A stretch of 64,000 nucleotides of DNA from an uncultured virus (IMG/VR IMGVR_UViG_3300021399_000140). Its lineage: Duplodnaviria; Heunggongvirae; Uroviricota; Caudoviricetes. A model generated the notes under the pieces. That model saw only the letters and a program-made list of their open reading frames with translations, was not told the origin of the DNA and did no database searches. Position 1 is the stretch's first letter; each line of letters opens with the position of its first letter. The stretch lies in the IMG/VR virus record IMGVR_UViG_3300021399_000140; one strand, 5' to 3'. Position numbers and translations under genes: made by a program. This document shows, one piece after another, positions 6,705-42,899 of this stretch.

Positions 6705-7667
6705 ATGTAGACAGTGAATGAGAACATACCAGTGACAAAAGTTGTTAAAGTGTCAGAACTAAGGACAGTTGACTACATTACAGATGATGCAATGTTCATA
6801 TGTGTCTAGAATGGAAAGTCATTAAAGACTACATATGGAGCATTGAAAGACATTTTGCTTAAGCAAGTTCTAAAAGATGTGCAATAGAAGATTTCTTATC
6901 AAGCGGAGCTAGAGCAAGCAGCATTAAGCTCTACAGATGAATTGCTTAAAGCAAGCACTAATGCGTTGTCAAGCCGTTTAGCTGAAAATACGATAAAGAC
7001 TAATAGAACATCAAATGCAGTAGACACTTTGTCAACAAATCTTGCCAAGATGAATGATGACATGCAATAGCAGTTTTCTTCTTTGCTAGAAAACTACTAG
7101 AGAATGAGCAATAGAATAGAGCAAATTGACACTAAATACTCTACATTGCCTTCAAATGTTGAATCTATGCTTGACATTAGCAGCAAAGCAATCATGAATA
7201 GCTTTGAGCAACTTAAGAATGACATTTCAAGCTAGGCTAATTCAACATCTATCTAGTACAAAAAGCTTTTCAAAAACATCAGTGCTAGCATTGAAAAAGG
7301 CAAATCAGAGTTAAATGATTGCAAGAATTAGATTGATGTATCAAACAACACATTTGAAGATGCTATAAATAAAATAAAAGACAGATTGAATAAAGATAAA
7401 ACTATTGTTGAAGACAAAATTGCTAATGTTGAAAGCAATATCAAAAAGAATACATCTGACATAGGCAGTAATTTTGATTCTGCAAAAGTACAACTTTCTT
7501 CAATGGAATCGCAGATAGCAATATTAAAGAACCAAATAATTTCAATTAATGATTAGATGAGCAGTTTAGTAGAAGAAAATGCAGAATTGCAGAAAAAAGT
7601 CAAAGAGCTAGTTGCATACAATGAAGATTCTTATTGTGCAACTGTAAATGAAGGAACTGATCTATGA
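6705..7667 (+). CDS. Coiled-coil protein, putative fibre/structural
   Basis: ATG-TAG start after GTAAATA; open to TGA in code 15; KVSEL N-terminal motif then heptad-rich sequence; absent from the code-11 track. Confidence 0.6.
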
Positions 7668-9259
7668 ACATACAATCAATAAGCGAACTTAATGCATTAT
7701 CAGATAAATATGAAGCAATACGTTCTTTATCAGCTGTACTTAGCACTGATACATCAGCAATTCATGATTTTAATGAAATAGCTCCAGCTATTTGCACAGA
7801 TACGGATGTAAGCAATATCTTAAATAAAGTTGCTTTTGATGTGTTGTCATGCAAAGATTTCTATGTTGAAGCATCATATCAAAGTGGCAACAGCTACTAG
7901 TCATTGAAGTTCAATTTAGGCGATGCACTTTCAAGACTAGCAAAGTCTTTAGCATTGATAGCAATAAAGAACTTGAATGCATTGACAAAAGAAAGAGCTG
8001 ATGACTTATATGTTCCATTTTCTGGAAACATTGGAAGTGATAAAGCTGTATCAGGTCTTTGGATTTAGTAGACTGGAGCGGCTGATAATACTACTGCATT
8101 AAGTGTTGATGGTCCAGTATTTGTATGTAATGCTAGCAAACAAAAATTGCTTGAAATAAATCCAAATAATTCAATTAGTTCATCTACTATTACAATAAAT
8201 GGCGGAACATTTAATGCTTCTAGCACATCAAGCAATTTTAGTAAATTGACAGCAACTGAGATCAAAGCAACAAACGAAATTAGTACTGCAACATTAAAAG
8301 CAAATTCATTATATGCTGGGTTGTCTAACAACACATGGAATTTTACACAACAAGCTAACAATATTACTTGCAGTATAGCCGGTTGTTTGACAGCTAATAC
8401 TGGAAACTTTGTAAATTTGACAGCTACTAATCTTACAGCTAATACTGCATATGCAGGAAAGAATTCAGATGATAAGTATACGTTGACAGCAAATGGAACT
8501 GGTGTTACTACTAGTGCTTTGACTGCTGCATCATTAGCTTGCAATGGCAATATCAATAGTACTGGTTTTATTCATTCAAATGCAAGCATATCTTGCGCTG
8601 GAACTCTTAGTTCTACAACTGCCCTTTGCACTGGTGGTGGATTTAATTGCGCAGGAGCTATTGAATGTGGTGGAAACATCCATGCAGATGAAAGCATATC
8701 TTGCGCTGGAACTCTTAGTTCTACAACTGCTCTTTGCACTGGTGGTGGATTTAATTGCGCAGGAGCTATTGAATGTGGTGGAAACATCCATACGATTGAA
8801 AGCATCTCATGTGCTAAAAATCTTAGCTCTACAGCCCTTACTGTTGGTGGCAATATTTCTTGTAGTGGTACGTTGACTGTTAGTACAGCGCTTAAAGCAG
8901 GATTTTCTACACCTGAAGGTGGATCAGAATAGATAAATCTTTATGTTCCTAATTCTGGTGAAATTAAGATAGCATAGCTTAGTTCAACTACTATTAAATG
9001 CAAAGATCATTTGTATGCAGGTCATGATAGTACAACATGGAATTTAGACGTTCCAAATAGTGGAACAATAGCAATTAATAGCTTAGCAGCTACTAATTTG
9101 ACAGCAGGAATAAAAACAGGTGCAGCAGGATTTAATGTTCTTGTAGCTGGCTCAACAGAAAACAAATTGACATTAAATGCATTAAATGTAACAGCAACAA
9201 ATGGTTTGACAGCAGCTGGAATATCAGAGCTTACTGCTAAAGCAGCATGTTGGTCATGA
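7664..9259 (+). CDS. Putative tail fibre / beta-repeat receptor-binding protein
   Basis: Fragments 7664, 8147 and 9011 in frame; Ser/Thr/Gly/Ala/Cys-rich short beta repeats (LTA, ISCAGTL); ATGA overlap with the upstream gene. Confidence 0.6.
8584..8791 (+). repeat. Tandem duplication, 108 bp period (36 aa) within the fibre gene
   Basis: 8584-8683 and 8692-8791 are identical except one C/T; unit SISCAGTLSSTTALCTGGGFNCAGAIECGGNIH. Confidence 0.95.
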
Positions 9260-16292: not shown

Positions 16293-16893
16293 GAAGCAGC
16301 TAGCTAAGAAAGCAGGAAAAGGAAAAGATCCTGCATCAGTTAGAAAGATCACTTAGCAGTTTCATGACTTGCTTCAGTCTGCTCCAACATGGAGTGAAGT
16401 CTAGGCAGAGCGTAAGCGAAAGCTAGCAGCCTTAGGAAAAGAGCCAATTGACTTGATGGCGCCAAATGGTGTCAGAAGCGCAGACATGCTTGATGACATC
16501 TACCATACAGAGACATGGCAAGCTATGCAAGTGAAGCTAGCTACTTATGGAATGACATTGCAGATTGAAGACCATGTATGGCTTTGCAACACATTAGCTT
16601 ACCATTATGGATTTTGGCCTCATACACGACTAAGATTCAAAGCATATTGCTAGCTTATATAGAAAGATTTGGATTGTTTAGCAGTAGTTGGACAAAGGAA
16701 GTTTGTCAGCTTTGTCAAGAGAGAAGCTGAATATCTTGACAAGCAGATGAAGATTGATCCACTTTATGATGTTCCAGGAAGAAGAGATGAGCTGAAAGCT
16801 TGGCTCAAGCTGCTTGATGTGATGAAAAGATGCTAGAAGAGAAATGACGCAATTAAGAAGTCAAGAAAGAAGAAGTTATGGTAGATTGGCTGA
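16285..16893 (+). CDS. Hypothetical basic protein
   Basis: Open in code 15; includes the 16453 fragment; overlaps both neighbours. Confidence 0.55.
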
Positions 16894-17993
16894 AAAGAAA
16901 GAGAATGAACGTCCTAGTTGTAGGAGCTAATGGAATGCTTGGAAGTGCAGTTCTTAAGCATTTCCAGAAAGAAAGCATGAAGAAGCATTCAAAAATCAAC
17001 AGTTGCATAGGATTGGCTAAAGAAGACTATCAGCTTGGCAGCTTCTCAACAGCTCTTGCTAGAATGTGTGAAGACAAGATGGTTGATGTAGTGATAAATT
17101 GTGCAGCATATACTGACACAGCTGGTTGTGAAGACAAGCAGAACTTAGAGAAGTCATACATAGCAAATGTCCTTGGTGTAAAGAATTTAGCTTCTACTTG
17201 TGCATACCATAAAGTGAAGCTTGTCCATATCTCAACAGACTATGTCTATTCGCAGCACTCATACATGTACTAGCCATGGATATATGAGTTTCCATGCAAC
17301 ATGTATGGCATGCAGAAGTTGCTTGGTGAAAGAGAGATGCAGCTTGAGTATGCGCATTGGCCAGAAGGACAGCTTATCTGCAGAATGTCATGGCTGTATG
17401 GAAACACAAAGAAGCATCTTTTCATGCACAAGATCTTAGCTGCAGCATATAGAGCTAGAGCATTGATGGCAGAGCAGAACAAAGATGAAGCTGTAATCAA
17501 AGCAGCAGCAGACTAGTTTGGAAGTCCATAGACAGTAGACTCTGCAGCAAGCAAAATCTTGAACTTAGTTTGTGAAGGTGTGTATGGAACAGTCAATTGT
17601 TGGACAAGCATCTTAAATGAGACAAGATTTTCTTTTGCATAGCATATACTCAAAAGCTATGCCAATATGGTTGACAGGCGTCTAGCTCCAGTTAAAGTAG
17701 AAGCATGCAAGTCAACAGACTTTGTCTCTGTTGTAGAGCATCCACTGTTCTCAGACAAGACCGGTCTGCCAAATGAATATCTTGCTTCTAATTCATCATT
17801 TTGCAAGCTTGGAAGTGGTAGAAAGTTCACAAACATGCTGCTTAAGACTAAAAACAGCATTGATGACATTCTTCTAGACTATGGTGCAATAGCTTCGTTC
17901 ATACGAGACAATGGCAATGCTCTTAAAGAGCATGTACTTGGAATGCTTGATGACAAGACAAAAGACATATTGAGCAAATTACCAGAGTAGTAA
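16878..17993 (+). CDS. rfbD: dTDP-4-dehydrorhamnose reductase (RmlD/RfbD-like SDR)
   Basis: GANGMLG, INCAAYT, HISTDYV, YGMQK (YxxxK) and D(TAG=Q)FGSP motifs. Confidence 0.85.
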
Positions 17994-18022
17994 ATAGTAA
18001 AGTGGTAAAGGACAGACCGTAG

Positions 18023-19468
18023 ATGAAATTTAGAAGCATTCTAGCAGCATTGTTGATTCCATTTGCATGTTTCAGCGCAGAGTATGTGACAACTAACTTG
18101 AATGACAGTCTTCATACAGAAATAACTTATGATGCTGCTACTAACATAGACATACGTCTTGTAGAGATTCGCTCTCTTGACATTGACTTGACAATATCAA
18201 ACAAGTTCAGTCTTACATGGTGTAGTCCAAGAAAACTTTCAGTTGAAAAGCTTGATGCAGCATAGATAGTTGTTGAGAAAGTAGAAGTTGAATACCTTAC
18301 TCCAGAGAAAGTAGAAGTAGAGCTTTTGTCACCAGGCAAAGTAGAAGTAGCTGATGCACATTCAGCAAAGCTTCTAGTAGTTGACAATAGCATGTTCAAA
18401 GTTTTTTGGTCTGCAGATACATTTGCAGAACTAGACCAAATGAAGAAAGCATATTAGTTTGGCGCTTCATATGGTGGCTCTGGAAGTCCTAGAATGAAAG
18501 ATCTAGAAAAGCTGTATGGATTTTCAAACTTATAGATGTACTACAAATGGCTGAACAAGCTATGGGACAACAAGACACTTGAAATATCTAAGATAAAGCC
18601 AACTGGATCATTCAAGCTTATTGGAGAAGCATGGATATACAGCAACAAATGGGATCAAGCTGTAAAAGAGCAGTTTGAAAGAAATCTTCAATGGACAAAG
18701 GCTAAAGGCTATGACGCAGTTCTTGTGCGATTTGATTGCAATGAAGACATGACAAATCTTCTTGAAATGATACAGGTCATACGAAGCAAGAGCATGAAAG
18801 TATTTTCAGTATATGTTGGCCGGGACAACACTTGTCCAAGATGGAATCCTTACATTGATCCAGACAAGCTTGAGCCATTCTTCAAGACTATAGCAGCTAA
18901 GTCAGATGGCTACATTCTTGGTTGGAGAGAGACATCAACGCATGTCCGCTTGATGCCAAACGAGTTCTTCAACTACCTTTGCAAGATGGCTAGAGAAGCA
19001 AATCCTAACATTCTGCTGTATGGTGAGATCTACTATGGATATACATCATCGTCTGCAGGCAGAAGGGCATTGTTCTACAACATTCCAAAGAATGTGACTG
19101 GTGTAGTAGTATAGAATATGGGATTTGTTGGCTACAATCATGGCTACATTGTATAGCAGTTGTTCAAGAACATAGTTCCAAACTACAAGACATATGACAA
19201 GATATTCCAAGTAGTAGGAAGTGGACCATACTACAGAACTAAGAATGGGCATAATGGTGCATACATTGAAGATCTTTCAATTGAAGAAGAGTATAAGACA
19301 AAACGCTCTGTAGAGAACTCTTTCAAGCGATATGGAGCTAAGACTTTGACATTGCTTCATGATGGAGTTGATGACAACTTCACTTTCTTAGTAGCAGATC
19401 CAAATGACATGAAGCATTGGAATGACACTACAGACAACTTACTTTATGACACAACACTAACAAAATAA
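18023..19468 (+). CDS. Secreted protein, possible glycoside-hydrolase-like TIM barrel
   Basis: Sec signal MKFRSILAALLIPFACFSA; three in-frame fragments; KAKGYDAVLVRF and DGYILGWRE segments; fold call is an inference. Confidence 0.5.
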
Positions 19469-19483
19469 CAAAGGAAACAACAA

Positions 19484-20503
19484 ATGAAAAAAATACTAAT
19501 TGCAATAATGTTTGCTTCAATAGCAGCATTTGCAGACAATACTGTTCAAACTAGTATTGAACAACTAATAGCAGAAAAAAATTGGAATGTACTTTCAACA
19601 AATAGTTTTGATAGTAGCATTGTAAAGACATGGCAAACAACTGACGCTGAAGCTTTAGTAGAAGCTGCTATTTAGAATAAATTCTATTATACTGCTTATT
19701 CAGTTGCAACTGTAAATTCAAGAAAACCAACATTGATTGCTGCATGCTAGGCATTAGCTAATAATAATTTTATAACTAAAAAGAATGGAACATGCATGAC
19801 TATTCATTGGTCAAATTCATTAGATTGTTATGAATGTCGTGATGTAGTTATATCAATGGTTGCTAAATTACGTTAGATTCTAGCAGAAAATATTCCAGCA
19901 AATATTGAAAACGTAAATCTACCAGCAATGTGCAATTTTATTATGGTAGCTAACAACAAGTTCAATCTTGAAAAAACACCATTATAGATATCTGATAGTA
20001 TTATTAGAAATTCAGCTTTTAACTATATAAAACAACCAGCATTAACAATAAAAAACAGTGATTATAGTGAATAGTATGCTTAGATATATGCAAAATATTT
20101 TGCAGCTTTACCAGAAAATTCAGATCTTGCAATACGACAGAATGTTACATGGGAAAAACTTTCATATATAAATTGGCTTAATAAATATTATGGCACACAA
20201 TTTAATGATATATTATATGCTAAATCAAATTTTGCTGGAAAATTGTATATTGCAGTAGAAACAAGTGATGCTGACAAAGTTCTTGATGTATTAGAATTTG
20301 TAAAACAAGATACACTTGATGCTGAAACTACTTATAAGATGATAGTAATTCTTAATGGTCAAAAAGCTGACTGGCGCCAAGCAGATGTGCTTAAAGCTCT
20401 TAAGAACATCAACAGCATGTACACAATCAGACTTTATGATGATCGTGATGCTTGGGAGCCGGTTCTTAGCAAACTTCGTGCTATGATTGAAGTTAGACAG
20501 TAA
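19484..20503 (+). CDS. Secreted hypothetical protein
   Basis: Signal peptide MKKILIAIMFASIAAFA; AAAGGA RBS; joins the 20243 fragment. Confidence 0.65.
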
Positions 20504-24895: not shown

Positions 24896-25249
24896 ATGAA
24901 TAGTGTAACATTTGAAATACTTTGCAATAATATAAAAAATGCATTATAGAAAAATGCAGAATATAAAAATGCAAGAGTGGCAATAATGCCAAATGGTGAA
25001 AATTATACAATTGCTATATCAGCAACAATAAATCATTCAAAAAAATAGATAATTATAAACACTGATAAATACGAGCCACATGGAATAAGTGCATAGAAAT
25101 TTTTAGCTGGTGCAACAAAATATTTGCCAAAATGTGCAAAATACTCAGTGAAAATTAAAACAGATGACGATGATAATGGAAAAATGTTGACAGGAAAAGT
25201 CAAATTAAATGATGATTCTGTAGATGGATTATCAATAATTCTAAGTTAA
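24896..25249 (+). CDS. Hypothetical protein
   Basis: Open in code 15; GTAAATA and AAGGA upstream. Confidence 0.6.
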
Positions 25250-25322
25250 TATATTGCAAAAATCAGACAATTAATGATTTAAAGCTGCAAAAAGCCATAT
25301 AGTTTAAATAAAAAGACATAAA

Positions 25323-25931
25323 ATGAATAGGATTAAAATTTGGTTAGCTGCAGCTGCAATGTCATTAGCAGCAGTTGGACATGCAGCAGACGCATTTGAG
25401 TTTGTGAACAGCTCTGATGGCTACAGCTACATACAGATCAATGAGAGCATTGAGTCATTTACATTCAAGTCAGATTGGCATTCTCTTGGAAATGCTGGAA
25501 GAGTTGGATATGTCGTCTACACTGCTGACATGAGTGATAAAGAGCGTGCCGTTTACATGGAAGCTAACGCCAACAATCCACAGTTTGGAAAGAACATCAA
25601 TGATGGAATAGTAGATCTTGGCTCGCTGAAAGCTGGTGACAAAGTTGGCTTCTATGAAGTTCGTCCAAATGGTGGAATTTACACATAGACATTATTTAAA
25701 GATTGGCACGATGAGAAGTGGCTTGCTTTTGACAAAAATGGCGGCCATGGCAAAGATGAGTGGATGACAATTGCTGACATCAATGTGAGCACTTCTGGAG
25801 GATCTTCAGCTGGAGCTTCAGGCGGATCATCTAGCGGCGCTCCAAGTGGTGCTCCACTTCCTGGCGCATTAGCAGTTTTGCTAGTAGGCAGCGTTGGCTT
25901 TGGCGCTTTGAAAGCTTCTAAGAAAAGATGA
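25323..25931 (+). CDS. Secreted protein with a PEP-CTERM/VPLPA-like C-terminal sorting tail
   Basis: N-terminal signal peptide; Gly/Ser linker then PSGAPLPG-ALAVLLVGSVGFGAL-KASKKR (Pro motif, TM helix, basic tail). Confidence 0.75.
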
Positions 25932-26836
25932 AATATGCATTTATAGCATTTTTCAGCATTGCATTTAGTTGCATAGCTTCATAGTTCAATCTGACTCTAG
26001 AGAATGATTGCTTCCTGCCAGACAAAAGTCTTGGCAGGGGGGATCATGACTACACGCATGGAACTGGCTTTGAGTATGTTGACAACAACTTCATACACTA
26101 CAAAGCTGGCCAGAACATGTATGCTCCAAGTGACTTGAGAAGAAGTGACCACATTGATGGTGATCGTCCATATGCCGGAATCATATATGGTGGAGTTGGA
26201 TATGATTTCTTCAGAGACTACAACCCATATTGGACGCATTACGGTGAGATTGACTTTGGAATGATTGGCCCTGCTGCATTTGCTGGACATACACAAAGAA
26301 TGATACATCGCATTCTTGGTTGCAGGGATCCAAAAGGCTGGCATAACTAGCTTCATAATGAGTTTGTAGTCAATGGACAATGGTGGGAAAAGTACAATTG
26401 GTATCTTTGTGATTATGTAGCTTTAGTTCCAAGGGCTGGTGTTCTAGCTGGAACAATCCAAGACGCATTTGAAGTTGGCTGTGACTTGAAGATAGGCTGG
26501 AATCTCAGAAATGATGCTGGAAACAACATGATGTTCAGCTCTAGCAGAAATGCAAGACCAAAGTCATTCTTTGACAAGCTAAGTGCGTGGACATATGTTG
26601 GAGCTGATGAAAGATACTATTTGTACAACCATATCTTAGAAGGCTCATTCATAAGAAACAGAGACAAAGACTTAGATGTCACAATTGAGCCATTTGTTGG
26701 AGAGCTGCAATGGGGAGCATGCATCTAGTATGAGAACTTCATTGTAAGATACTACATGTGCTTTAGGCAAGATGAGTACAAACATTAGAAGCATTCACCA
26801 AATTATGGCGGCTTGATGTTGGGCTGGTGCTGGTGA
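25928..26836 (+). CDS. lpxR: Lipid A deacylase LpxR family (DUF2219) outer-membrane beta-barrel
   Basis: Signal peptide; END, DYTHG, GQNMYAP, DRPYAG, GMIGP..., TQRMIH, PKGWHN(TAG=Q)LHNE; terminal aromatic W. Confidence 0.88.
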
Positions 26837-26853
26837 TAGTAAATATGTTTAGT

Positions 26854-27033
26854 ATGAAAAAGTTTCTTATTATGTCATTTCTTGCTGCATTGGCTGGCTG
26901 CACTTCAACAATAGACAAAGCTAGTCTAGAGAAGATAGACAAAGCTGCAAAGCTAGCTGACTAGATTGAGATGAATGGCTACAAGCTTGTAGCTACAAAC
27001 AAGACTTTGATCTTGATAGCGCCAAAACAATAA
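26854..27033 (+). CDS. Small lipoprotein
   Basis: MKKFLIMSFLAA-LAGC lipobox; 59 aa. Confidence 0.75.
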
Positions 27034-27072: not shown

Positions 27073-28032
27073 ATGCAACTTATATTGAAGCCAACAGCAG
27101 CATGCAATTTTGCATGTACATTTTGCTCAGCAAACAAGCTTAAGTTGAAGCACCTTGTTTCAGTTCCTGATGAATTGAAGAAGCTTCTTGATGCACTTAA
27201 GCCTTAGGACATAATATTGACAGGTGGAGAGCCATTGCTTTGTTCAATAGCTTTCTATGAAGAGCTACTTGAAATAGGAGCTTGGACATTGAGCTTTACT
27301 TCTAATTTGAAAGCTTTTTATGAAAGTCCAGAGTTTTGGACAACATTGTTCAAGAATAGAAGAGTTGGAGTGTGCACTTCATTCTAGTATGGACCTGGAA
27401 GATGTTGGTCAGCTGGAGAACCATATACTGAGCAAAAGTTCATTGAAGTAGAAGAGCTATTTAGACAGAAGATTGGATATGCACCAATGTTTATAGCGGT
27501 TCTTTCAAATGACAATGAGCAATATGCAATGAAGCATCTTGAGCTAGCAAGAAAGCTTGGAACAAAATGCAAGCTTAATGGAGTTCTTCCAGTTGGATTG
27601 AGCAAAGAGTTCTTTCCAAGATGGAAGCTTTTCAAAATATGGCTTGATGCAATAGATTTAGGATATGGAGATGTGCTAGACATATAGACAGCTGCATATC
27701 AAGGTGGTTGTGGCTTGAACACTAACTGCATGTGCTAGTCTACAATAGGTGCTTGCGAGATTGCTGAAGATGGAAAGCTCCAATATGCAACATGTGAAGA
27801 AGATCTTAATGCTTAGACAGACCTTATTCTTCCACCAGACCATCAACTTGTTCCACAGCAGATGAAGATCCATCCAAACACATTGATCAGCAAAAAATGC
27901 TTGACATGCAAACTTTGCAGACTTTGCAATGGCTGCAAGCATGCAAGAAATGGTGCTTGTCATGATGACAGGCATTGTGAAGAGATGAAGAAGCTTGAAG
28001 ACAGAATAGTAGCTGCTGGCTGGAGGCTGTGA
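27073..28032 (+). CDS. Radical SAM protein with SPASM-like Cys-rich C-terminus
   Basis: LKPTAACNFACTFC, TGGEPLL; C-terminal CLTCKLCRLCNGC. Confidence 0.9.
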
Positions 28033-28835
28033 TGGAAGTGTATGCAATACCAAACTATGAATGCACATTAGCATGTCCTCATTGTGAGATAAAAGACATG
28101 AAATGTGAATGGAACAAAGACAAGTTCATAGAGCAGTTGAACAATCTTCCACAAGATGCAAAAGTCACATTGTTTGGAGGTGAGCCAACAATGTTTTCAG
28201 ATAGACTTGATGCATGCTGGCAAACAGGAAAAGTGACTTCAATCTCAACTAATTTGATGCATCTCAACTAGACTGCATGGAAAGTTCTTCTAGACAGAAG
28301 AGTGAGCATAGCAACATCATGGAACTTCACTAGATTCAATAGCAATCTTCCAATGAGCAGATGGCTAAGCAATCTAGAAGCGCTAGCAGGAGTTGGTCGA
28401 ACATGCATGGTTCTAGTGACTTTGACAGAAGATCTTATTTCAGACAAGAATTGGCTAGATGTTCTGCATGCATTTGACTAGATATAGAAGACTAATGCAT
28501 GTGATTCATTGCTTTTTGAGCAACTTATAGCTGATGACGCAGATCAAGCATTCTATGATGCATGTGATGGTTGGCTTTGCAAGCTTCATTGGACTTGGCG
28601 CTGGAAGTTCAGAAATGAGATAGAAGAGAAAGTCAAGAATGGATGGAAGTTTGTCTGCAATGACACATGGACATTGCATCCAGATGGAAACATGACTTTT
28701 GGCTGTCCGCATGGAAAGAAGAAAGCAATATGCACAAAATGCTTTTCATGTGAAAGAAAGTCTTCATGCAAGCCATGTGCGTTGTAGAGATGCTGCACTA
28801 TGCCAAAGCAGCTTGCTTAGATCTTGTCAGCTTGA
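28032..28835 (+). CDS. Radical SAM protein with SPASM/twitch-like C-terminus
   Basis: CTLACPHC, FGGEP, STN; TLHPDG...GCP, CFSC...CKPC; TGATG coupling to the upstream gene. Confidence 0.88.
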
Positions 28836-29774
28836 CAAGTGGTTCTTAAGATCTTCAAATGAATGAAGCTAGTTCTTTTTTGCTAGCTGGTATATTTCAG
28901 ACTTGTCTATGCACAATGAGCCTGCAAACTTGTTAGCTAAAGTTGTGCTTTCACTGAATATTATTTGTTGCTTCTCGTCTACTGCATTCTGCAGAATGAA
29001 CTGAAGAAGCTCTTTTCCAATGCTGTAAGACAAGTCAATGCTATGTGTTGAGAACACTACATCTGGAAATGCTAGATATTTGACAGTGCATTTGCAAGGA
29101 AGCAATGTCACATATACTGCTACATCATCATAGTTAGTTATAGCATTTCCTTGCTTGATGTTCTCTTCTGGAACTCCAAGTTTGCTTAGTCTATATGCAG
29201 CAAAGTCTCTCATTCTTTTGTCAAGCTCTATTCCATAGCATCTTTTAGGATCAGCACCAGCTATTATTGCTGCGGCTAAAAGATTTCCAGATCCAGCAGA
29301 TATGTCAATTATGTCTTTGTCTTGCAAAGTGTCTAGCTTTTCAAGCATCTTCATTGACATTGTTGGTTCAGTGAAGTACTAAGAGAACAATGAAGCTCTT
29401 ACTTTGTCAGACAGTAGTTGCTTGCTTTCTTCTTTTGCAATGTCATGCTCTTCAATTATTCTGCTCTTTACATCTTCTGAAAGGCTAAGTGCCTAAAGTT
29501 TTCTCCAATGTCTTAAGCATGTGTATATTCCAAGATCTGATGTCATAATTGCATCTTTGAACTGCTTGCTTGCAGACCACATTGGAATGTCTTCTAAAGC
29601 TACTATACTTTTTATGAGCTCATGCTCTTCATTTGTCGTGTACTTGTGCCATGCTGTTGGTTGCAGACTTATGCATATTCCATCTGGTTTCAACATCTCA
29701 AGAGCTTTTGCAAGAAATCTAAGATGCAAACCAGACTAATATGGTGGATTCATCAATACAATGTCATATTCCAT
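28827..29774 (-). CDS. N6-adenine (amino) methyltransferase with permuted motif order
   Basis: N-terminal YDIVLMNPPY, then S(TAG=Q)YFT, DISAGSGNLL and YGIELD. Confidence 0.8.
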
Positions 29775-30411
29775 TTTTCTCTACCATTTTAAGATATTCA
29801 CGTGATATGAAGTTAGTGTGGATATGCTTCTCTTTGCGTATTGGTTTTGGCATGTCTTTCAAGCAGCGCATGACATATTCCATGTTTACTGCTAATGTTC
29901 TCATTGTCTGAAGACCTTCTATGTCATGCTTCATCTCATCAGGTGTGTCACCATAGCATTCATTCCAGTACTAACTTCCAACAACTATCATTGAATGCAT
30001 CAAGAAGTACATGTTCAATTCTGCAAAAGCAGTTGTGTTTCCAGATCTTCTAGATGTAGTTATTCCAGCGCATGGCTTGAACTCTAGAAGATTTGGCTAG
30101 CTGTAGAACAATCTTGTCAAGAAGTTCTTAAGCTAGCTTGTTATTCCACCATAGTACACAGGACTTCCAACTATCAATCCATCATATGTGTGGGCGCATC
30201 TGACAAAGTAGTCTAAAGGATCATCTTTTATGAAGCATGTAGTCTTGTTGTCTTTGCAATGTCGACAATTCAAGCATGGCTTTATGTCTGTTCCAGTCCA
30301 TATAAGATCAAAGTCAACGCCGAGCTTGTTCAACTCGGCGCCAACTTCCATCAAAGCTGCATTAGTGCAGCCATTCTTTCTAGGACTGCCGTTTACTAAG
30401 GCTACTTTCAT
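29764..30411 (-). CDS. Iron-sulfur flavoprotein / NADPH-dependent FMN reductase
   Basis: NGSPRKNGCT, CLNCRHC...C, GSPVYY and VGS(TAG=Q)YWN. Confidence 0.9.
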
Positions 30412-31397
30412 CACGAATTGTATGTTGACTCATATGAGATAAGTGCATTTCCACATGTGATCCTGTCACGATCTTCCTCTTTGCTAGGAATGAACACAAT
30501 CACTTGCCAACCTTCGTCAATAAGCGGCTGCTCAAACTGCTTGTACACATCATAGTTGTAGTAGCCTTCAGACGTCTCAATTCCATTAGCTTCAGCTTCA
30601 ACCGTAGCATGGATAGGAGTAATCTTGACAATGAACTTCTCTTTGTCAAACAGACGAGTAAGCTCTTTAGGATCAAGAATAGTGTCTTTAGTCACAGGGA
30701 AGTTCAATGTGTACTTTCTTCCTTGTGGCATTGGAAGTGTCTTAGCAATCTCTGAGATCTCAGCTAATGTCAAAGAAGCGCCTCTGAACAAGTCATCTCT
30801 CTAAGCTTCATCAGTAGAGTTTATAGACAATTGAAGTCCAGCTTCACCCTTGTAGTGTCCATTCTTTATCTTGTCGCAGAACTCATAGATTATCTCTTGA
30901 AGCTTGTCTTTTCCAACAGCTTTAGGACACATTGTCGTGAACACTGGATGGATAGCATCAGCTTTCATGTTTCTGTTGACGATGTCTTCAAGCTTGTCAG
31001 TCAAGAACTCAAATACATTCTTGTAGTTGAATGTAGGCTCACCCATACGTGCTAAATGAAGATTGAACCTTCTAGTGTACTTGCATTCACTGAACTTTAT
31101 AGCGTTCTCTGTCTCTTCGCAAAGCTCATCTACAGAGATGTTTCCTTTGAACTTGACTTTAGGACAATCACAGAACTTGCATTTCATTGGACAACCTTTT
31201 TGTGTTGAGATTGTCACAACAAGCTTGTAGCCTAAGTCAACATCTTTATGCTCTACACCATTTATCTCTTTGTTGTATCCCAAGAAATCAGCTTTTATGT
31301 TGTTTTCTTGGCCATAGTCACCAACATAAAGATATTCCATTGTCTTGTCAGTGTCAGCAAATATTGCACCAGTGGCAGTTGGGAACTTCTTTATCAT
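30411..31397 (-). CDS. RlmN/Cfr-like class A radical SAM protein
   Basis: ISTQKGCPMKCKFC, MGEP, LQLSIN and C-terminal TCGN; AAGGA RBS. Confidence 0.82.
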
Positions 31398-31424: not shown

Positions 31425-31453
31425 ATTATACCGTTTTTGCAATTGCATTGCAA
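31425..31453 (-). promoter_or_regulatory. Sigma70-type promoter for the minus-strand operon
   Basis: TTGCAA-N17-TATAAT on the reverse strand. Confidence 0.6.
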
Positions 31454-31469
31454 TGTAAATATATATACT

Positions 31470-33671
31470 ATGGTAGATGAGTCAGTCTTAGATTCTCCTT
31501 AGAAAAGTTTGTGTTCATTAGTGTGGTCAAAGTCCACAGATGGAAACTATTATCTCAATCCATAGCTTCGCTAGAAGATAATGAAGCTATGCAACTATGT
31601 CTTTTCTTAGAAGTCATTAGATTGGATGAACAAGAAAGCCAATAGAAATTGGAAAGTTGAAGACTACTAGGTGCATATAATTGGATCTATAACTTCAAAC
31701 ACATATTCTAAGAACTCTGACATAGACATACATTTCATCATACCATCTATTCCAAAGAAAGATGCTGTCTTGTTTTCAGACACATTGCGTCTGAACTACA
31801 AAGAGAACTATCTTCCAGGCAATCCAACATAGTGCTATGGTGGAAACAAGCAAAACAAGTTTCCATTTGAGCTGTACTATCAGCCAAACATCTTCATGGA
31901 CATGACATCAATTGGATGCTACAATGTTCTTGATGGAGTATGGGAAGTTGGTCCTACACTTGTTGACAAAGACTTCAATCCATATTCTGCATACTTCAAG
32001 AAAAGTTTGGAAAACATTGAAGATGTCATATCAGATGTAAGAAACATAATTCTTGAGCCGTATGAGCTAGCTAAAGTCATAATGCATATAGACAAAGATG
32101 ACCATTTGTATAGGCAGCTAGCTAAACAGCTTATACAACTTTTGAAGAAGTCTTATGACATAAGCAAAGTAGTTTGGGGAAGACGAAACTACAAGAAAGT
32201 TGCTCATGACAAGAAGACTGCTAGCAAGATAAGAAACGACAAGACTAAGAAGATAATTGATGCGTCATTCAAGCTTCTTGAGAAGTTTGGCTACATATCT
32301 ATATTAAGAGACTTTGTAAAAGCATGGGAGAAGTTTGAAGATAGACGAATGGATGTAGATGATGTAGTAGAGACAATACTTATGAGTGTAGGACAGTTCA
32401 TAAAAGCGGATGATGAATGCATAAAAGAGTCAAAACAAATAAGAGACAACTTGAAGTTGTAGGTAGAAGACATGAACAATGAAAGACAACTAGAAGAAGC
32501 AGGTCTTATAATAAACAAGAATGATGGTGCATATCCAAAAGAAGGCTAGATATTGATAATGGCTGGTGGTGGAGGATCTGGAAAGAGCTTCATTCTAGAG
32601 AATTTGCTTCTGTTTGAAGGTAAAGTGTTCAACATAGACCATTCAAAAGAGTGCTTGAGACTGTATGGAAAGAAGAAGCCAGATGGAAAAATAGCTTAGA
32701 AATTCAAATAGAGATATGGTTATGAGCTTAAGGACATATCATTGAAGAATCCATAGCATTGCAATGATATACATGAGTTTTTAGTTCAATATCGTCTAGC
32801 ATATGAGCCACAAGCATTATTCTTCAAAGCTGCATAGGTATCAAAGATAAAGCCAAATGTCATATTTGACATCACATTGAAAGATCTTCAACATCTTGAG
32901 ATAATAAGTGCTTATGCTTAGCAAGGTGGATATGATCCAAAGAACATTCATGTAGTTTGGGTTCTTAATGACATTAAAGTAGCATTAGACTAGAATGCTA
33001 AGCGTGAAAGAACTGAGCCAACTGATGTCATTGTGACGGCGCACAATGGTGTAGCTACTTCAATGAAAGCTTTATTTGACTACTCAGAAAAATGGCGGCA
33101 AGCAATTGATGGTGACATTTGGATTGTGTTCAACAAGAAAGGCGTTGATGTTCATACAACAGTCAACATCAATCGTGATGATCTTGGCAACAAAAAAATA
33201 ACAATGAAGATTGATGACTACAGTGCAATACATATGAAAGAGCGTGGAAAGCCTGCGCTGAAGTTCAACTAGATTGAGAAGCCATTGATGGACAAGATAC
33301 TTAGCTATGTTCCAGACACAGCTAAAGCTAAGCTGCAAGCAGATTTAAAGGAAAAAGACATGAAAAACAACATACCGGCTGACATATAGCACTATAAAGA
33401 CCTTCTAGAAGATGATGTTGAGGAACCATTTGATGGTTTCTTTGGTGATGATTCTGAAGACAGCAGCACTAAGTATTTCGTTGCTGTCATGCAAGACAAC
33501 AAGACAAAAGAATGCTCATTTACTTTTGTAGAAGCTACAGATGATGAAGATGCTAGACTTCAACTTAAGAACAAGTTTCCAAATGCTAAAGTGCTTAAAG
33601 TCTAGCAAGAGAAGAATGACGCAAGCTACATATTGAAGTCACTTGGTCTTCAAAATGCAAAACGTGTATAA
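31470..33671 (+). CDS. Pol-beta-type nucleotidyltransferase fused to a P-loop (zeta/AAA_33-like) kinase
   Basis: IIGSITSNTYSKNSDIDIH; MAGGGGSGKS, VIFDIT and NAKRER; one frame with only TAG interruptions to TAA. Confidence 0.75.
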
Positions 33672-40139: not shown

Positions 40140-41396
40140 ATGAAAATTCTTACTGTTCTAGCACGTGGAGTTGAAGGCTGTGGAGTGACAGTCAACTCAA
40201 TAAAGTTCACAGAGTTCGTAAACAAGCAAAAAGGCTATAAAGCTGCATGTGTTGCGAACACTGACATAAAGTGGGGAAGAGGCAATGTCCATAAAGGTGA
40301 CATAAAGCTTCTAAGCTTCACTAAGTAGTTTGATGAGCTTAAAGCTCTTGTAGATGAATATGACAAGATCATATTCATGTGCACACCGTTGAAGAAGTCT
40401 TCAGCTTAGATAAAGAAAAGCTTTGTAGACATTCTTGACTATGCAAAAAGCAAGAAGAAGACTTGTGCATATTGCTAGTTTGACCATAAGATTCGGTCAC
40501 TTAGGACAAACATGTACAGTGATCCAGAATGGTATGGAATTTGGAAGAAGTTTGATGTAGTGTTCACTCACTCTCACACTAATGACTTTGTTGTGAAGTA
40601 TCTTGAGAAGAACAAGATTCCACACAACAGAATTGTCTGTAGAGGTGATGATGGCATTGTGAATCTTTTTGCTATTGACTTTGAAGAGCTTAAGAACAAG
40701 TTCTGGAAGAAGTTTGAAGACAAAGAGCCTAAGACAATAAAGTTCATTGGACGCGATTCTGCTTGGAAAGGTCCATGGGCATTTCGTGACTTGCATTACA
40801 ATTGGCTCATGAAAGATGGTTGGATTGCTTCAGCAGAAGGAATTGGTCTTTCAATTGGCACATTGAATGACATATTCAAGCAGATAAAGCCTAGCAAGAT
40901 TGTGCGTGATGATGTCAACATTGACTACATAAAAGCATCTAAGAAGAATGTAGCAGACATTGATGCTGGAAACATAAAGCTAGAAGCTGGAAATCCAGTA
41001 TACTTCATGCCACCATACAATCATGACACTGCTATGGAAAGACTTAGCAAGTGCTAGTTTGGAATTGAGCTTTTGATGCTTGATGATAATTTCAGCAAAG
41101 ATGTCATTGAGAATGCCATGTTTGAGATTGCTGCTGTAGGTTGCATACCAGTGTTCAGAAAGCGTTGGGCTGACAACTTCAAGCTTGTCAAGAACAGAAC
41201 GCTTGGAAGCTATCAATTTGCAGAGACAGGAATGATTTTTCTTGATGAAGAGAATCCAAAAGCTGCAGTTGAGCTTATGAACATGCTTGCTAAAGACAAG
41301 AAGAAGTATGATGAAGCAAGAGAGACTGCATACAATTTCATGAAGACATTCTTTGACGTCAAGCCAGTATACACTAAACTTCTTTAGGAGCTGTAA
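40140..41396 (+). CDS. agt: DNA alpha-glucosyltransferase homolog (T4 a-gt family)
   Basis: ARGVEGCGVT (T4 ARGLEGCGVT), DHKIRSLRTN, IGRDSAWKG and EIAAVGCIPVF. Confidence 0.85.
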
Positions 41397-41397
41397 G

Positions 41398-42441
41398 ATG
41401 AGAGAGACAGAATTAGATTACGAAGAGTATTTAGCTGCTGGTGCAGCTAAAGCAAAGTACACAGAAATATATTCATCAAAGCATGTGTTTTGCTTTACAC
41501 ATAGTGCAGACTATGATGGAATATTCAGCGGAGAGATTGTAAGGAGATTCTTCAATGGAAAAGTGAAGATAATTCCAATAAACTTTGGAGATGAAGACGC
41601 TAAGAATGTCTTGAAGAAATGGGACTTCACTGGAGCAGATGTGATAATATGTGACTTCTGCTTTGATGATGACATAATGGAAGAGATTGCGTAGACAGCG
41701 CATTCACTTACATGGCTAGACCATCATGCTTCAGCTATTGACAGAATGAAGAAGCTTAAGTCATTTGACAAGTTCTATGGAATTTGGACAACTAAGCATT
41801 CAGGAGCATACAATACTTGGTGCTGGTTCTACAATAACATGAAGCTTACAACTGCTTCAGACAGAGATGATGTTCCAGAGATAATCAACATTGTCTCAAA
41901 GTATGACACATGGACTTTCACACATGCTGAGATGCAGAAGATGATGGCGATACAGCTTGGAATGAAAGCATTAGACATAAAGTTTGGCTCAGAGCTTTTT
42001 GATGTACTTCTTTATGAAGTGAAGAACGATGGAAACACTACATATGACATGTACTAGAACTTGATGAACTAGATCATCTAGACCGGCTCAGCAATTGACA
42101 AGTACAATCAGAACTACAGCTATCGCTCATATGAGCGCATGGCATTTGATGTTGTCTTCAAAGTAAAAGGAAGAAAGCTAGTTGGGTGTGCTTTGAACAT
42201 TGATGCACATTCAGACAGTTTCAGATATGTGTATGACAAAGATCGTCATGACTTTTGTATTTCATTCCATAGACTTGGTGACAAATGCGCTAGCAAATGG
42301 ACATATGGAATATACATCATGAATGACAAGAAAGGAAAGATCAGCGCTATTGACATTGCTTAGCATATAAGTCCTTCTGGTGGTGGTCATCCATCTGCAT
42401 CTGGCGCTACAACTGATGAGCTTATAAAGGAGCTGCAATGA
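41398..42441 (+). CDS. DHH/DHHA1 phosphoesterase
   Basis: HSADYDG, ICDF, WLDHH and GGGHPSASG. Confidence 0.9.
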
Positions 42442-42899
42442 AGCAAGTCATGCATCATTACATCAGTTGGGACACTATAAGTGCATTGTCATGCACTTTA
42501 GCACTTCAACTGAAAGGAAAAGCTGACTTTGACACAATTATTTGCGTTGGCAGAGGTGGAATGGTTCCAGCAAGACTTCTGTCAGAACGACTTGGCATAA
42601 AAGACATACAATTCTGTGACTGCAGATCTTATGTTGGAATATGCAAGCAAGAAGAAGTGCATATCAAAGACACATTGCAAGATGTTGAAGGAAAGCAAGT
42701 TCTTGTAGTAGATGATTGTCTTACATCAGGAAAGACATTAGATGCAGTGTATCAGTTGTTGGCAGACAAGAAAGCACAAAGCATCTACATGGCAGTGCTG
42801 TACAAGAACATAAATGTAGATGATGTGTTTCCAATGTCATGTGCAGCATTGTATGATGCAGACAAAGAATGGCTTGTTTTTCCATGGGAAAATTGTTGA
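42438..42899 (+). CDS. Type I phosphoribosyltransferase (Gpt/Hpt-like)
   Basis: RGGMVPA, VLVVDDCLTSGKT and WLVFPWE. Confidence 0.9.
   Translation: MKQVMHHYISWDTISALSCTLALQLKGKADFDTIICVGRGGMVPARLLSERLGIKDIQFCDCRSYVGICKQEEVHIKDTLQDVEGKQVLVVDDCLTSGKTLDAVYQLLADKKAQSIYMAVLYKNINVDDVFPMSCAALYDADKEWLVFPWENC

What the first reader, a model, noticed from the sequence alone, without database searches (positions are those of the whole stretch)
25323..27033. Phage-borne outer-envelope remodelling cassette: PEP-CTERM-like protein + LpxR lipid A deacylase + lipoprotein
Seen: translationally coupled (ATGA) genes for a sorted surface protein and an LpxR-family beta-barrel, followed by a LAGC lipoprotein, all already TAG-recoded. 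Known: LpxR removes the 3'-acyloxyacyl chain of lipid A; PEP-CTERM tails are processed by host exosortases. Inference: a T4-like phage edits host LPS and borrows host sorting to display its own protein, for superinfection exclusion, outer-membrane weakening or altered immunogenicity. I do not recall this combination described in phages.
Basis: partly seen in the sequence, partly recalled or inferred. Interest (0 to 1): 0.8.

Follow-up and report, generated by a model that had tools for sequence, protein, structure and literature searches.

The report
Phage LpxR plus borrowed exosortase-sorted protein
A large T4-like gut phage that reads TAG as glutamine carries an intact-looking lipid A deacylase gene, fused by overlapping stop and start codons to a surface-protein gene copied from bacteria, whose tail looks like the address label of a bacterial sorting enzyme.

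Summary
Under TAG=Q, 25323-27033 holds three same-strand ORFs: P0001 (202 aa), LpxR (302 aa, ATGA overlap with P0001) and a 59-aa LAGC lipoprotein.

LpxR is genuine: Pfam 188 bits, best fold match 3FID, and T34/H122 equivalents invariant. It belongs to a clade seen here on large phage contigs and is only about 30% identical to the best bacterial genome hits.

P0001 matches no PEP-CTERM model. Its invariant GAPLPG-helix-KKR tail belongs to a bacterial family (GQPLPG tails). In 4 of 5 genomes examined, that family lies 1-3 kb from the genome's only, divergent exosortase. The phage therefore very probably relies on host sorting.

The bacteria that carry this family have LpxC but no LpxR (0 of 37 searched).

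The P0001-LpxR coupling recurs in three phage lineages with different P0001 subfamilies. However, 8 of 12 LpxR phage loci lack P0001.

The lipoprotein is a near-orphan with 3 homologues.

The biological purpose is inferred, not shown; surface remodelling or superinfection exclusion is my favoured reading. Prophage-borne lpxR in E. coli is a partial precedent.

The parts
25323..25931 (+). P0001: secreted protein of 202 aa. It has a signal peptide (about residues 1-21), a beta-sandwich domain (about 22-158), a Gly/Ser linker, and a C-terminal G176-A-P-L-P-G181 motif followed by a hydrophobic helix and KASKKR. One TAG (Q122); stop codon TGA.
   Evidence: Translation. 158 homologues. Invariant GAP(L)PG in A2. 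AF2 model with mean pLDDT 74 and a strand-rich core. No Pfam, NCBIfam or PHROG hit. Bacterial homologues lie beside an exosortase.
25848..25928 (+). C-terminal sorting-signal-like tail of P0001: GAPLPG, a helix of about 15 residues, then a basic cluster.
   Evidence: Invariant columns. The same tail type (GQPLPG...KKRKK) occurs in bacterial genomes. No known CTERM model matches it.
25928..25931 (+). ATGA overlap: the TGA stop of P0001 overlaps the ATG start of LpxR (translational coupling).
   Evidence: The same ATGA junction is present in L083, L094 and L119.
25928..26836 (+). LpxR-family outer-membrane lipid A deacylase homologue, 302 aa, with 4 in-frame TAG codons (Q19, Q141, Q267, Q287). 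It has a signal peptide, an E25-N26-D27 motif, T43 and H127, and ends in ...GWCW.
   Evidence: PF09982 at 2.2e-55, 188.3 bits, covering 13-322 of 323 model positions. phmmer to 3fid_A at 5.8e-11 with T34/T43 and H122/H127 aligned. Invariant columns. AF2 plus Foldseek gives 3fid_A at E 2.9e-15, TM 0.68/0.70.
26854..27033 (+). Small predicted lipoprotein, 59 aa (MKKFLIMSFLAALAG|C...), with one TAG (Q37) and a TAA stop. It is lineage-specific.
   Evidence: Only weak family hits. Three homologues in the 5.8-billion-cluster search. Present in G001/L082 at 98% identity, and no convincing match in any other fetched locus.

Best explanation
SHOWN
- The window is a TAG=Q recoded, T4-like large phage. 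Near-identical sequence is found in ruminant-gut samples.
- It carries two envelope-directed accessory genes joined by an ATGA overlap.
- Gene 2 is a true LpxR-family outer-membrane beta-barrel that keeps the residues known to bind Ca2+ and activate water in Salmonella LpxR.
- Gene 1 belongs to a bacterial family of small secreted beta-sandwich proteins. Their C-terminal G[A/Q]PLPG-helix-basic tail has the anatomy of an exosortase sorting signal.
- In bacteria this family is encoded 1-3 kb from the genome's single, divergent exosortase, in a TPR / exosortase / EpsI-like / sugar-transferase locus.

INFERRED MECHANISM
- During infection both proteins are exported by host Sec.
- LpxR is inserted in the outer membrane by host BAM. 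There it removes the 3'-acyloxyacyl unit of lipid A, in a host clade that makes lipid A (LpxC present) but has no LpxR of its own.
- P0001 is handed to the host exosortase, which cleaves at the PLPG motif and places the protein on the cell surface or exopolysaccharide layer.

INFERRED PURPOSE (least certain)
- Together they rewrite the surface of the infected cell. Most likely this blocks adsorption of further phage to infected cells and debris (superinfection exclusion or receptor masking).
- Outer-membrane weakening before lysis is the main alternative.

The downstream 59-aa lipoprotein is a lineage-specific add-on of unknown role.
For: LpxR identity
-.
- The roles of N9, D10, T34 and H122 are taken from passages of PMC6260217.

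LpxR distribution
- 165 homologues of at least 51% identity in metagenomes.
- 9 IMG/VR loci, on contigs up to 434 kb.
- The best 80 of 493 bacterial genome hits are only 23-33% identical.

P0001 tail and its bacterial family
- The tail is invariant in 20 of 20 aligned homologues.
- 42 of 401 genomes sampled from one phylum hold the family, and 41 of those 42 have an exosortase.
- In 37 of the 42, the best exosortase match is the weak-scoring type (E 1e-21 to 1e-31), against 13 of the 359 other genomes (my reading of the table).
- The exosortase lies 1.2-3.1 kb from the family gene on the same contig in 4 of 5 genomes examined. In the fifth, the two genes lie on separate 2-3 kb contigs.
- The enzyme passes the exosortase/archaeosortase signature TIGR04178 (53 bits against a cut-off of 23) but reaches no named subtype. 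The nearest model is XrtD.
- There are 2-4 tail-bearing ORFs per genome.

Host clade
- LpxR was found in 0 of these 37 genomes, against 92 of all 401.
- LpxC was found in 5 of 5.

Coupling of the two genes
- The ATGA junction is present in the window, L083/L119 and L094.
- The window and L083 P0001 proteins are only 32% identical and fall in different bacterial subfamilies, while their LpxR proteins are 89% identical.

Origin of P0001
- Phage copies are nested among high-GC bacterial copies in at least 2 places on the tree.
- Those high-GC loci have cellular neighbours.
Against: - No PEP-CTERM, VPLPA-CTERM or other sorting-domain HMM matches the tail.
- No cleavage or deacylase activity has been shown.
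- The host is not identified. The only taxon label is one MAG protein called Kiritimatiellae, plus an Atlas lead to Lentisphaerota/Verrucomicrobiota with scores below 0.9.
- The co-occurrence with the divergent exosortase is confounded by phylogeny, because the genomes may be one clade.
- The pair is not general. 8 of 12 LpxR phage loci have no P0001 within 4 kb. One low-GC P0001 locus (L097) has no LpxR within 1.5 kb, and in L100 the two genes are on opposite strands.
- N9/D10 equivalence rests on position and motif (END at mature residues 7-9), not on an alignment I could print.
- Salmonella E128 aligns with R133.
- Nothing bears directly on exclusion versus lysis.
Confidence: 0.55

Rival explanations
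1. The two (or three) genes are independent accessory genes ('morons') that happen to lie together in a variable region. LpxR and P0001 each act alone and there is no joint function.
For: - 8 of 12 LpxR-bearing phage loci have no P0001 relative within 4 kb.
- Of the 18 of 29 metagenome P0001 loci with at least 600 bp downstream, only 2 have LpxR directly downstream and 1 has it nearby on the other strand.
- The lipoprotein is confined to the closest relatives.
- The neighbourhood is a mix of accessory genes: GNAT, radical SAM, methyltransferase, FMN reductase.
Against: - The ATGA overlap is kept in three phage lineages even though the upstream gene was exchanged for another subfamily.
- Most of the uncoupled P0001 loci are high-GC bacterial DNA, where no LpxR is expected.
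Confidence: 0.25
2. P0001 is simply a type I membrane protein. The signal peptide is removed, the beta-sandwich sits in the periplasm, and the C-terminal helix with KKR anchors it in the inner membrane. No exosortase processing takes place.
For: - The tail obeys the positive-inside rule.
- No sorting-domain HMM matches.
- No exosortase was found in the 51-kb record G001 or among the 54 window ORFs scanned with Pfam.
Against: - The G-x-P-L-P-G motif immediately before the helix is invariant across proteins as low as 32% identical and across paralogues with different N-terminal parts.
- The family genes lie next to the exosortase in 4 of 5 genomes.
- 41 of 42 family-positive genomes have an exosortase.
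Confidence: 0.12
3. The module serves lysis rather than exclusion. Late, bulk deacylation of lipid A by LpxR destabilises the outer membrane, taking the place of or helping a spanin. The small lipoprotein may be an outer-membrane spanin-like component.
For: - P0003 has a weak hit to the Rz-like spanin phrog_456 (E 0.023).
- No recognised spanin or lysis gene was seen in the window.
- Another LpxR phage locus (L087) has unrelated small lipoproteins on both sides of LpxR.
Against: - The spanin hit is at noise level and no inner-membrane spanin partner is adjacent.
- The lipoprotein is missing from nearly all LpxR phages.
- The genes sit among nucleotide-metabolism and accessory genes, not next to an endolysin or holin.
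- Only a quarter of the genome is in view.
Confidence: 0.15

Closest known systems
Salmonella Typhimurium LpxR (PDB 3FID; Pfam PF09982), the Ca2+-dependent lipid A 3'-O-deacylase
   Same: Full-length Pfam match (188 bits). Best fold match, TM about 0.7. T34, Q118 and H122 equivalents are conserved, and an END motif sits at the position of N9/D10. Signal peptide and C-terminal aromatic residue are present.
   Different: - Only 19% identical over the structural alignment.
- E128 is replaced and K67 is not aligned to a basic residue (the adjacent R71/R72 are basic).
- Encoded by a lytic-type T4-like phage with four TAG=Gln codons.
- Belongs to a clade about 30% identical to the best bacterial genome hits.
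- Activity is untested.
lpxR carried next to the Q antiterminator in lambdoid prophages of EHEC/EPEC E. coli
   Same: It is an LpxR gene on a phage genome acting as an accessory gene. A passage of PMC13192938 lists LpxR (PF09982) with antiterminator Q as conserved neighbours of prophage sRNAs. phrog_2309 ('unknown function') matches P0002 at 5.6e-10.
   Different: - Those are temperate phages, where the gene is read as lysogenic conversion that dampens host immunity (PMC6863877 passage).
- Here the carrier is a T4-like large phage and no integrase or lysogeny gene was seen in the 64-kb window.
- tblastn of P0002 against 50,697 GenBank phage records found nothing at E <= 1e-3.
- No coupled sorted protein is reported there.
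PEP-CTERM / exosortase protein sorting, and its VPLPA-CTERM / XrtD variant
   Same: N-terminal signal peptide plus an extreme C-terminal Pro-containing motif, hydrophobic helix and basic cluster. Genomic linkage to an exosortase, an EpsI-like protein, a TPR protein and a sugar transferase. The central P-L-P resembles VPLPA.
   Different: - The motif is G[A/Q]PLPG, not PEP.
- No CTERM domain model matches.
- The linked exosortase scores far below every named subtype cut-off (XrtD 66.9 bits against 400; XrtA 66.3 against 208).
- Only 2-4 substrates per genome.
- The substrate gene has been taken up by phages.
Phage superinfection-exclusion and surface-modifying accessory genes (T5 Llp lipoprotein, Cor, O-antigen acetylases/glucosylases). 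These are recalled from general knowledge and were not searched here.
   Same: Phage-encoded envelope proteins that alter or mask the cell surface during infection. A small outer-membrane lipoprotein is part of several such systems.
   Different: No homology to any of them was found. The chemistry proposed here (lipid A deacylation plus an exosortase-sorted protein) is not among the examples I recall.

Membership tests
LpxR (PF09982) | Sequence match above the curated Pfam threshold over the whole domain | tested here: met
   188.3 bits against a cut-off of 26; model positions 13-322 of 323.
LpxR (PF09982) | LpxR-type outer-membrane beta-barrel fold | tested here: met
   AF2 model with pLDDT 71 and pTM 0.71. 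Foldseek rank 1 is 3fid_A at E 2.9e-15, TM 0.68/0.70; the next barrel is at 1.3e-5.
LpxR (PF09982) | Catalytic His122 and Ca2+ ligand Thr34 (roles from PMC6260217 passages) | tested here: met
   The phmmer alignment to 3fid_A pairs T34 with T43 and H122 with H127. Both are invariant in 18 of 18 homologues.
LpxR (PF09982) | Ca2+ ligands Asn9/Asp10 | tested here: inconclusive
   E25-N26-D27 is invariant and lies 7-9 residues after the likely signal-peptide cut. However, the printed alignment to 3FID starts at residue 30, so the equivalence is positional only.
LpxR (PF09982) | 3'-O-deacylation of lipid A | not testable with these tools
   Needs expression and lipid A mass spectrometry.
PEP-CTERM sorting domain (PF07589 and NCBIfam CTERM models) | Match to a curated CTERM domain model | tested here: not met
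   0 families for whole P0001 in Pfam and NCBIfam at E <= 1. 0 families for the 36-aa tail at E <= 10. Bacterial homologues give only sub-threshold LPXTG/Heimdall-CTERM noise.
PEP-CTERM sorting domain (PF07589 and NCBIfam CTERM models) | Signal peptide plus C-terminal motif, hydrophobic helix and basic cluster at the very end | tested here: met
   The predicted helix spans 181-199.
Exosortase substrate (functional class) | Family restricted to genomes with an exosortase and encoded near it | tested here: met
   41 of 42 family-positive genomes have PF09721. The genes are 1.2-3.1 kb apart on one contig in 4 of 5 genomes. This holds for the bacterial homologues; the phage's own host is unknown.
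Exosortase substrate (functional class) | Cleavage of the tail by an exosortase | not testable with these tools
   Biochemical test.
VPLPA-CTERM / XrtD system | Exosortase reaches the XrtD model cut-off | tested here: not met
   TIGR04152 scores 66.9 and 73.0 bits against a cut-off of 400 for the two exosortases scanned.
Bacterial lipoprotein (P0003) | Signal peptide ending in a lipobox [LVI][ASTVI][GAS]C | tested here: met
   MKKFLIMSFLAALAG-C. This is read from the sequence; no dedicated predictor was run.
Rz1-like outer-membrane spanin (P0003) | Family match and an adjacent or embedded inner-membrane spanin partner | tested here: inconclusive
   phrog_456 at E 0.023 only. No partner ORF was recognised in the ORF lists.

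The most novel reading that the evidence does not exclude
A lineage of large gut phages hijacks the host's exosortase pathway. They carry a host-derived exosortase substrate, exchanged between phage lineages so that it matches the current host's version. It is translationally welded to a phage-clade lipid A deacylase that the host clade lacks. This would be a two-component 'surface mimicry plus LPS editing' system for superinfection exclusion. It would be the first virus-encoded client of exosortase sorting, and it would expose a previously unnamed exosortase subtype with a G-x-P-L-P-G C-terminal signal in PVC-group bacteria.
Probability: 0.3. Interest if true: 0.8.

Novelty: new variant of a known kind. 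Interest (0 to 1): 0.62.

Why it matters
LpxR is known as a bacterial, or prophage-borne, immune-evasion enzyme. Finding an apparently active clade spread through large, lytic-type gut phages, in hosts that appear to lack the enzyme, would add lipid A editing to what phages are known to do to the cell envelope.

The upstream gene matters in a second way. It ties an unannotated protein family and an unnamed C-terminal signal to a divergent exosortase. It also suggests that phages can use that sorting route. Exosortase biology has very few experimentally tractable substrates, and a small phage-borne one with a sharply defined motif would be a convenient test case.

The swap of P0001 subfamilies at a fixed slot could also serve as a host-range marker for these uncultivated phages.

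Tried and rejected
- **Family searches on P0001.** PHROGs, Pfam and NCBIfam gave no hit. The tail alone at E <= 10 also gave none.
- **Fold searches of the P0001 model.** These gave only generic beta-sandwich matches. The best were LecB-type lectins: Foldseek E 6.5e-3 to 8e-3, VIA Z 5.0, rmsd 4.2 over 99 residues. Nothing stands out from C2, TNF or capsid jelly rolls at Z 4-4.6. I make no lectin claim.
- **Protein Atlas.** The nearest clusters score 0.86-0.88, below the 0.9 level. Two carry PF07589. I treat this as a lead only.
- **GenBank phage records.** tblastn of LpxR against 50,697 records found no match.
- **The window's own assembly** is not held. The nearest record, G001, is a 51-kb fragment estimated 21% complete.
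- **Phage-encoded exosortase.** None was found in G001 or in the 54 window ORFs scanned with Pfam. Most of the genome is unseen.
- **Recent transfer of P0001 judged by base composition.** Rejected. GC3 is 0.355, the same as core phage genes. The higher total GC reflects Gly/Ala content.
- **Spanin reading of P0003.** The hit is at noise level.
- **Earlier notes of this scan.** None exist for this genome.
- **Transcription.** Two RNA-library runs hold only short contigs. X19 has two identical 151-nt pieces, at 25183-25333 and 26874-27024. X20 has a 596-nt piece of a roughly 92%-identical relative that spans the P0001/LpxR junction. The tool warns that DNA can be present in such libraries, so transcription is not shown.
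- **Literature.**
  - 'LpxR' with 'phage': 43 papers, 20 listed. None is about a metagenomic or lytic phage LpxR.
  - 'lipid A deacylase' with 'auxiliary metabolic': 0 papers.
  - 'LpxR' with jumbo/huge-phage terms: none of the 12 listed papers contains LpxR.
  - 'PEP-CTERM' with 'phage': 30 papers, 15 listed. The only virus-linked case I read is a PEP-CTERM-domain protein on a Dehalococcoides virus-like element.
  - 'exosortase' with 'Kiritimatiellae': 1 unrelated paper.
- **Not attempted.** Complex prediction was not run, because I do not claim that the proteins bind.
Full report
**What is there**

Read with table 11, the region 25323-27033 is a run of short fragments. With TAG read as glutamine it becomes three ORFs on the + strand, at exactly the reported coordinates:
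- P0001, 25323-25931, 202 aa, one TAG.
- P0002, 25928-26836, 302 aa, four TAG.
- P0003, 26854-27033, 59 aa, one TAG.

The stop of P0001 and the start of P0002 share ATGA at 25928-25931. Seventeen bases separate P0002 from P0003.

The recoding has independent support. Two of the four TAG codons of P0002 fall in columns that are invariant Gln in 18 homologues. Homologues from phage contigs with no in-frame TAG have CAA or CAG at those positions.

The window is a T4-like phage. It has a baseplate wedge protein, NrdD and NrdG, plus a T4-type portal (250.8 bits), DNA polymerase B, DNA alpha-glucosyltransferase and dUTPase. No tRNA lies in the window.

The 1,711-nt stretch is 99.07% identical in virus record G001. 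It is also covered by contigs of two DNA runs from other studies of sheep and goat gut. A host-phage chimeric assembly can therefore be set aside.

**The LpxR gene**

P0002 matches Pfam LpxR over the full model (2.2e-55, 188.3 bits against a cut-off of 26). Its only hit among solved-structure sequences is Salmonella LpxR, 3FID (5.8e-11). An AlphaFold model built on 18 homologues (pLDDT 71) finds 3fid_A first, at E 2.9e-15 and TM 0.68/0.70. That is ten orders of magnitude ahead of the next barrel.

Passages of PMC6260217 name H122 as the base that activates water, and N9, D10 and T34 as Ca2+ ligands. Against these:
- The printed alignment pairs T34 with T43, Q118 with Q123 and H122 with H127. 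T43, Q123 and H127 are invariant in the 18-sequence alignment, as is E25-N26-D27.
- The N26/D27 to N9/D10 equivalence is positional only, because the printed alignment starts at residue 30.
- E128 of the Salmonella enzyme aligns with R133.

The protein has a signal peptide and ends in ...GWCW, as outer-membrane barrels usually do. This is read from the sequence.

I conclude that it is an LpxR family member and probably active. Activity itself is untested.

**Where this LpxR clade lives**

- The 5.8-billion-cluster search returned 165 relatives. The 120 listed are 51-96% identical, all are from metagenomes, and some lie on contigs of 260-433 kb.
- IMG/VR holds 9 loci on viral contigs of 14-434 kb. 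Some of these genes carry 3-6 in-frame TAG codons and others none.
- Among one genome per species of 185,579 bacterial and archaeal species, the 80 best of 493 relatives reach only 23-33% identity. Many are Verrucomicrobiota and other PVC-group MAGs.
- tblastn against 50,697 GenBank phage records found nothing.

As far as these collections show, this LpxR clade belongs to large uncultivated phages.

Phage-linked lpxR as such is not new. A passage of PMC13192938 lists LpxR with antiterminator Q as the conserved neighbours of prophage sRNAs in pathogenic E. coli. PHROG 2309, labelled 'unknown function', also matches P0002 weakly.

**The upstream protein**

P0001 has no Pfam, NCBIfam or PHROG match, whether whole or as its tail alone. 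It has 158 relatives. In 20 aligned relatives the block G-A-P-(L)-P-(G) in front of a hydrophobic helix and a Lys/Arg cluster is invariant or nearly so. This holds even between proteins only 32% identical.

The model (pLDDT 74) shows a signal-peptide helix, a well-predicted beta-sandwich, a disordered Gly/Ser linker and a terminal helix. Fold searches give only generic sandwich matches.

The decisive evidence is comparative:
1. Of 29 metagenome loci holding a relative, many have 57-63% G+C and no need for recoding. Their neighbours are cellular genes: a solute-binding protein, Ser/Thr kinase plus FHA, and an FGE-sulfatase domain. These loci are bacterial.
2. In a sample of 401 genomes from the phylum of a Verrucomicrobiaceae MAG, 42 hold the family. 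Their proteins are about 190-380 aa, have signal peptides and end in S-G-Q-P-L-P-G, a helix and KKRKK-like tails.
3. 41 of the 42 have an exosortase (PF09721), against 299 of 401 overall.
4. By my reading of the table, 37 of the 42 have as their best match a weakly scoring exosortase (E 1e-21 to 1e-31). Only 13 of the other 359 do.
5. In 4 of 5 such genomes examined, that single exosortase gene lies 1.2-3.1 kb from the family gene on the same contig. In the fifth, both genes sit on separate 2-3 kb contigs.
6. In G114 the order on one strand is: two tail proteins, a TPR protein, the exosortase, an EpsI-like protein, then a sugar transferase.
7. The enzyme passes the exosortase/archaeosortase signature model but reaches no named subtype. 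The nearest are XrtD (the VPLPA-CTERM enzyme), XrtA and the generic model, all far under their cut-offs.
8. Each of the five genomes has 2-4 ORFs with a true GQPLPG tail.

This is the pattern by which exosortase substrates have been recognised. I therefore read the tail as the sorting signal of an unnamed exosortase subtype. It is not a member of the PEP-CTERM family as the models define it.

One caveat: the 37 genomes may be a single clade, so the co-occurrence numbers are not independent events. The gene neighbourhood is the stronger argument.

**Host clade and lipid A**

LpxR (PF09982) is present in 92 of the 401 genomes. It is present in only 2 of the 42 family-positive genomes (G296 and G365, which have ordinary exosortases). 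It is present in none of the 37 with the divergent exosortase (0 of 5).

LpxC is present in 5 of 5, so these bacteria make lipid A. If the phage's host belongs to this clade, the phage brings an activity the host lacks.

The host itself is not identified. The only label is one homologue (61% identical) from a MAG that NCBI names Kiritimatiellae. An Atlas lead points to Lentisphaerota and Verrucomicrobiota with scores below 0.9.

**Is it a cassette?**

Partly.

*For coupling*
- The ATGA junction between a P0001-family gene and LpxR is present in the window, in L083/L119 and in L094.
- The window and L083 have LpxR proteins 89% identical. Their upstream proteins are only 32% identical.
- These upstream proteins fall in different subfamilies. 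Each is 66-78% identical to a different set of high-GC bacterial proteins.
- On the tree, low-GC copies sit among high-GC copies in at least two places forced by well-supported branches.
- The slot upstream of LpxR has therefore been refilled with another host-type version while the overlap was kept. That argues for selection on the pairing.

*Against a general cassette*
- 8 of the 12 LpxR phage loci I could inspect (L084-L091) have no P0001 relative within 4 kb.
- One low-GC P0001 locus (L097) has no LpxR within 1.5 kb.
- In L100 the two genes are about 1 kb apart on opposite strands.

*The lipoprotein*
- P0003 has a clean lipobox, but only three homologues in the whole collection.
- It occurs beside LpxR only in the nearest relative, G001.
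- Its hit to an Rz-like spanin PHROG is at noise level.
- I count it as a lineage-specific neighbour, not as part of a conserved unit.

**Mechanism and purpose**

*Shown:* gene identities, the conserved residues, the coupling, the bacterial origin of P0001 and the exosortase linkage of its family.

*Inferred from what is established for LpxR and exosortase systems:*
- Sec export of both proteins.
- BAM insertion of LpxR and removal of the 3'-acyloxyacyl unit from lipid A.
- Exosortase cleavage of P0001 and its placement on the surface or exopolysaccharide layer.

*Speculative:* the purpose. I favour surface remodelling that prevents further adsorption to infected cells and debris. Outer-membrane weakening before lysis is the main rival.

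Base composition does not indicate recent transfer of P0001 (GC3 0.355, as in core genes). Contigs from two RNA libraries touch the region, and one spans the junction in a relative. This does not prove transcription.

**Novelty**

I found no paper describing LpxR in lytic or metagenomic phages. For a phage-encoded exosortase substrate, the one virus-linked case I read is a PEP-CTERM-domain protein on a Dehalococcoides virus-like element. The searched library omits most subscription journals, and I read no supplements.

Given the prophage precedent for lpxR and the known logic of exosortase sorting, I file this as a new variant of known kinds. Three elements are new:
- A phage-specific LpxR clade in hosts that lack the enzyme.
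- A host-derived, swappable exosortase client welded to it.
- An unnamed G-x-P-L-P-G sorting signal and exosortase subtype.

Noticed in passing
L135 (G114:C58:5034-8756), L136, L137, L138; family genes at G114:C58:9585-10589: A bacterial locus encodes two small secreted proteins ending in GQPLPG-helix-KKRKK, a TPR protein, a 290-aa exosortase that reaches no named NCBIfam subtype (nearest XrtD/XrtA), a 351-aa EpsI-like protein and a sugar transferase. It looks like an undescribed exosortase subtype with its own C-terminal signal.
   Followed up: partly
L102 738-3325; L095 373-2132: High-GC bacterial contigs carry three (L102) or two (L095) tandem paralogues of the P0001 family, all with the same GAPLPG tail.
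   Followed up: partly
L108 3758-7105: The P0001 beta-sandwich domain forms the N-terminus of a 1,115-aa bacterial protein that has no GAPLPG tail. It lies next to an FGE-sulfatase-domain protein.
   Followed up: no
L087 3822-3998 and 5623-6015: In another large phage (265-kb contig) the LpxR gene is flanked by two small predicted lipoproteins (LLAGC, LVAGC) unrelated to P0003.
   Followed up: no
window 27073-28835 (+) and 28827-31397 (-): Directly downstream lie two tandem radical-SAM-like proteins. On the other strand are a methyltransferase-like protein, an NADPH-dependent FMN reductase and a third radical SAM protein (phrog_24834, 6.3e-92). This is a possible modification gene cluster of unknown target.
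   Followed up: no
window 40140-41396: A homologue of T4 DNA alpha-glucosyltransferase (PF11440, 81.9 bits). It hints at glucosylated hydroxymethyl-cytosine DNA in a TAG-recoded gut phage.
   Followed up: no
window 16878-20503: An RmlD-like sugar-nucleotide reductase (138 bits) is followed by two signal-peptide proteins of 488 and 339 aa with no family match. These are further candidate envelope-directed accessory genes.
   Followed up: no
window 7664-9259: A 531-aa protein in the baseplate/fibre region contains an exact internal duplication of about 33 residues (ESISCAGTLSSTTALCTGGGFNCAGAIECGGNIH) and has no family match.
   Followed up: no
window 31437-33671: A 744-aa protein whose C-terminal half matches phrog_5268 (1.8e-64) also shows a weak Zeta-toxin/P-loop kinase signal (9.9e-6).
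   Followed up: no
window 42438-42899, 47469-48557, 48918-49367, 49752-50342: A set of nucleotide-salvage genes: phosphoribosyltransferase, IMPDH/GMP reductase (223 bits), nucleoside 2-deoxyribosyltransferase and a YfbR-like 5'-deoxynucleotidase.
   Followed up: no
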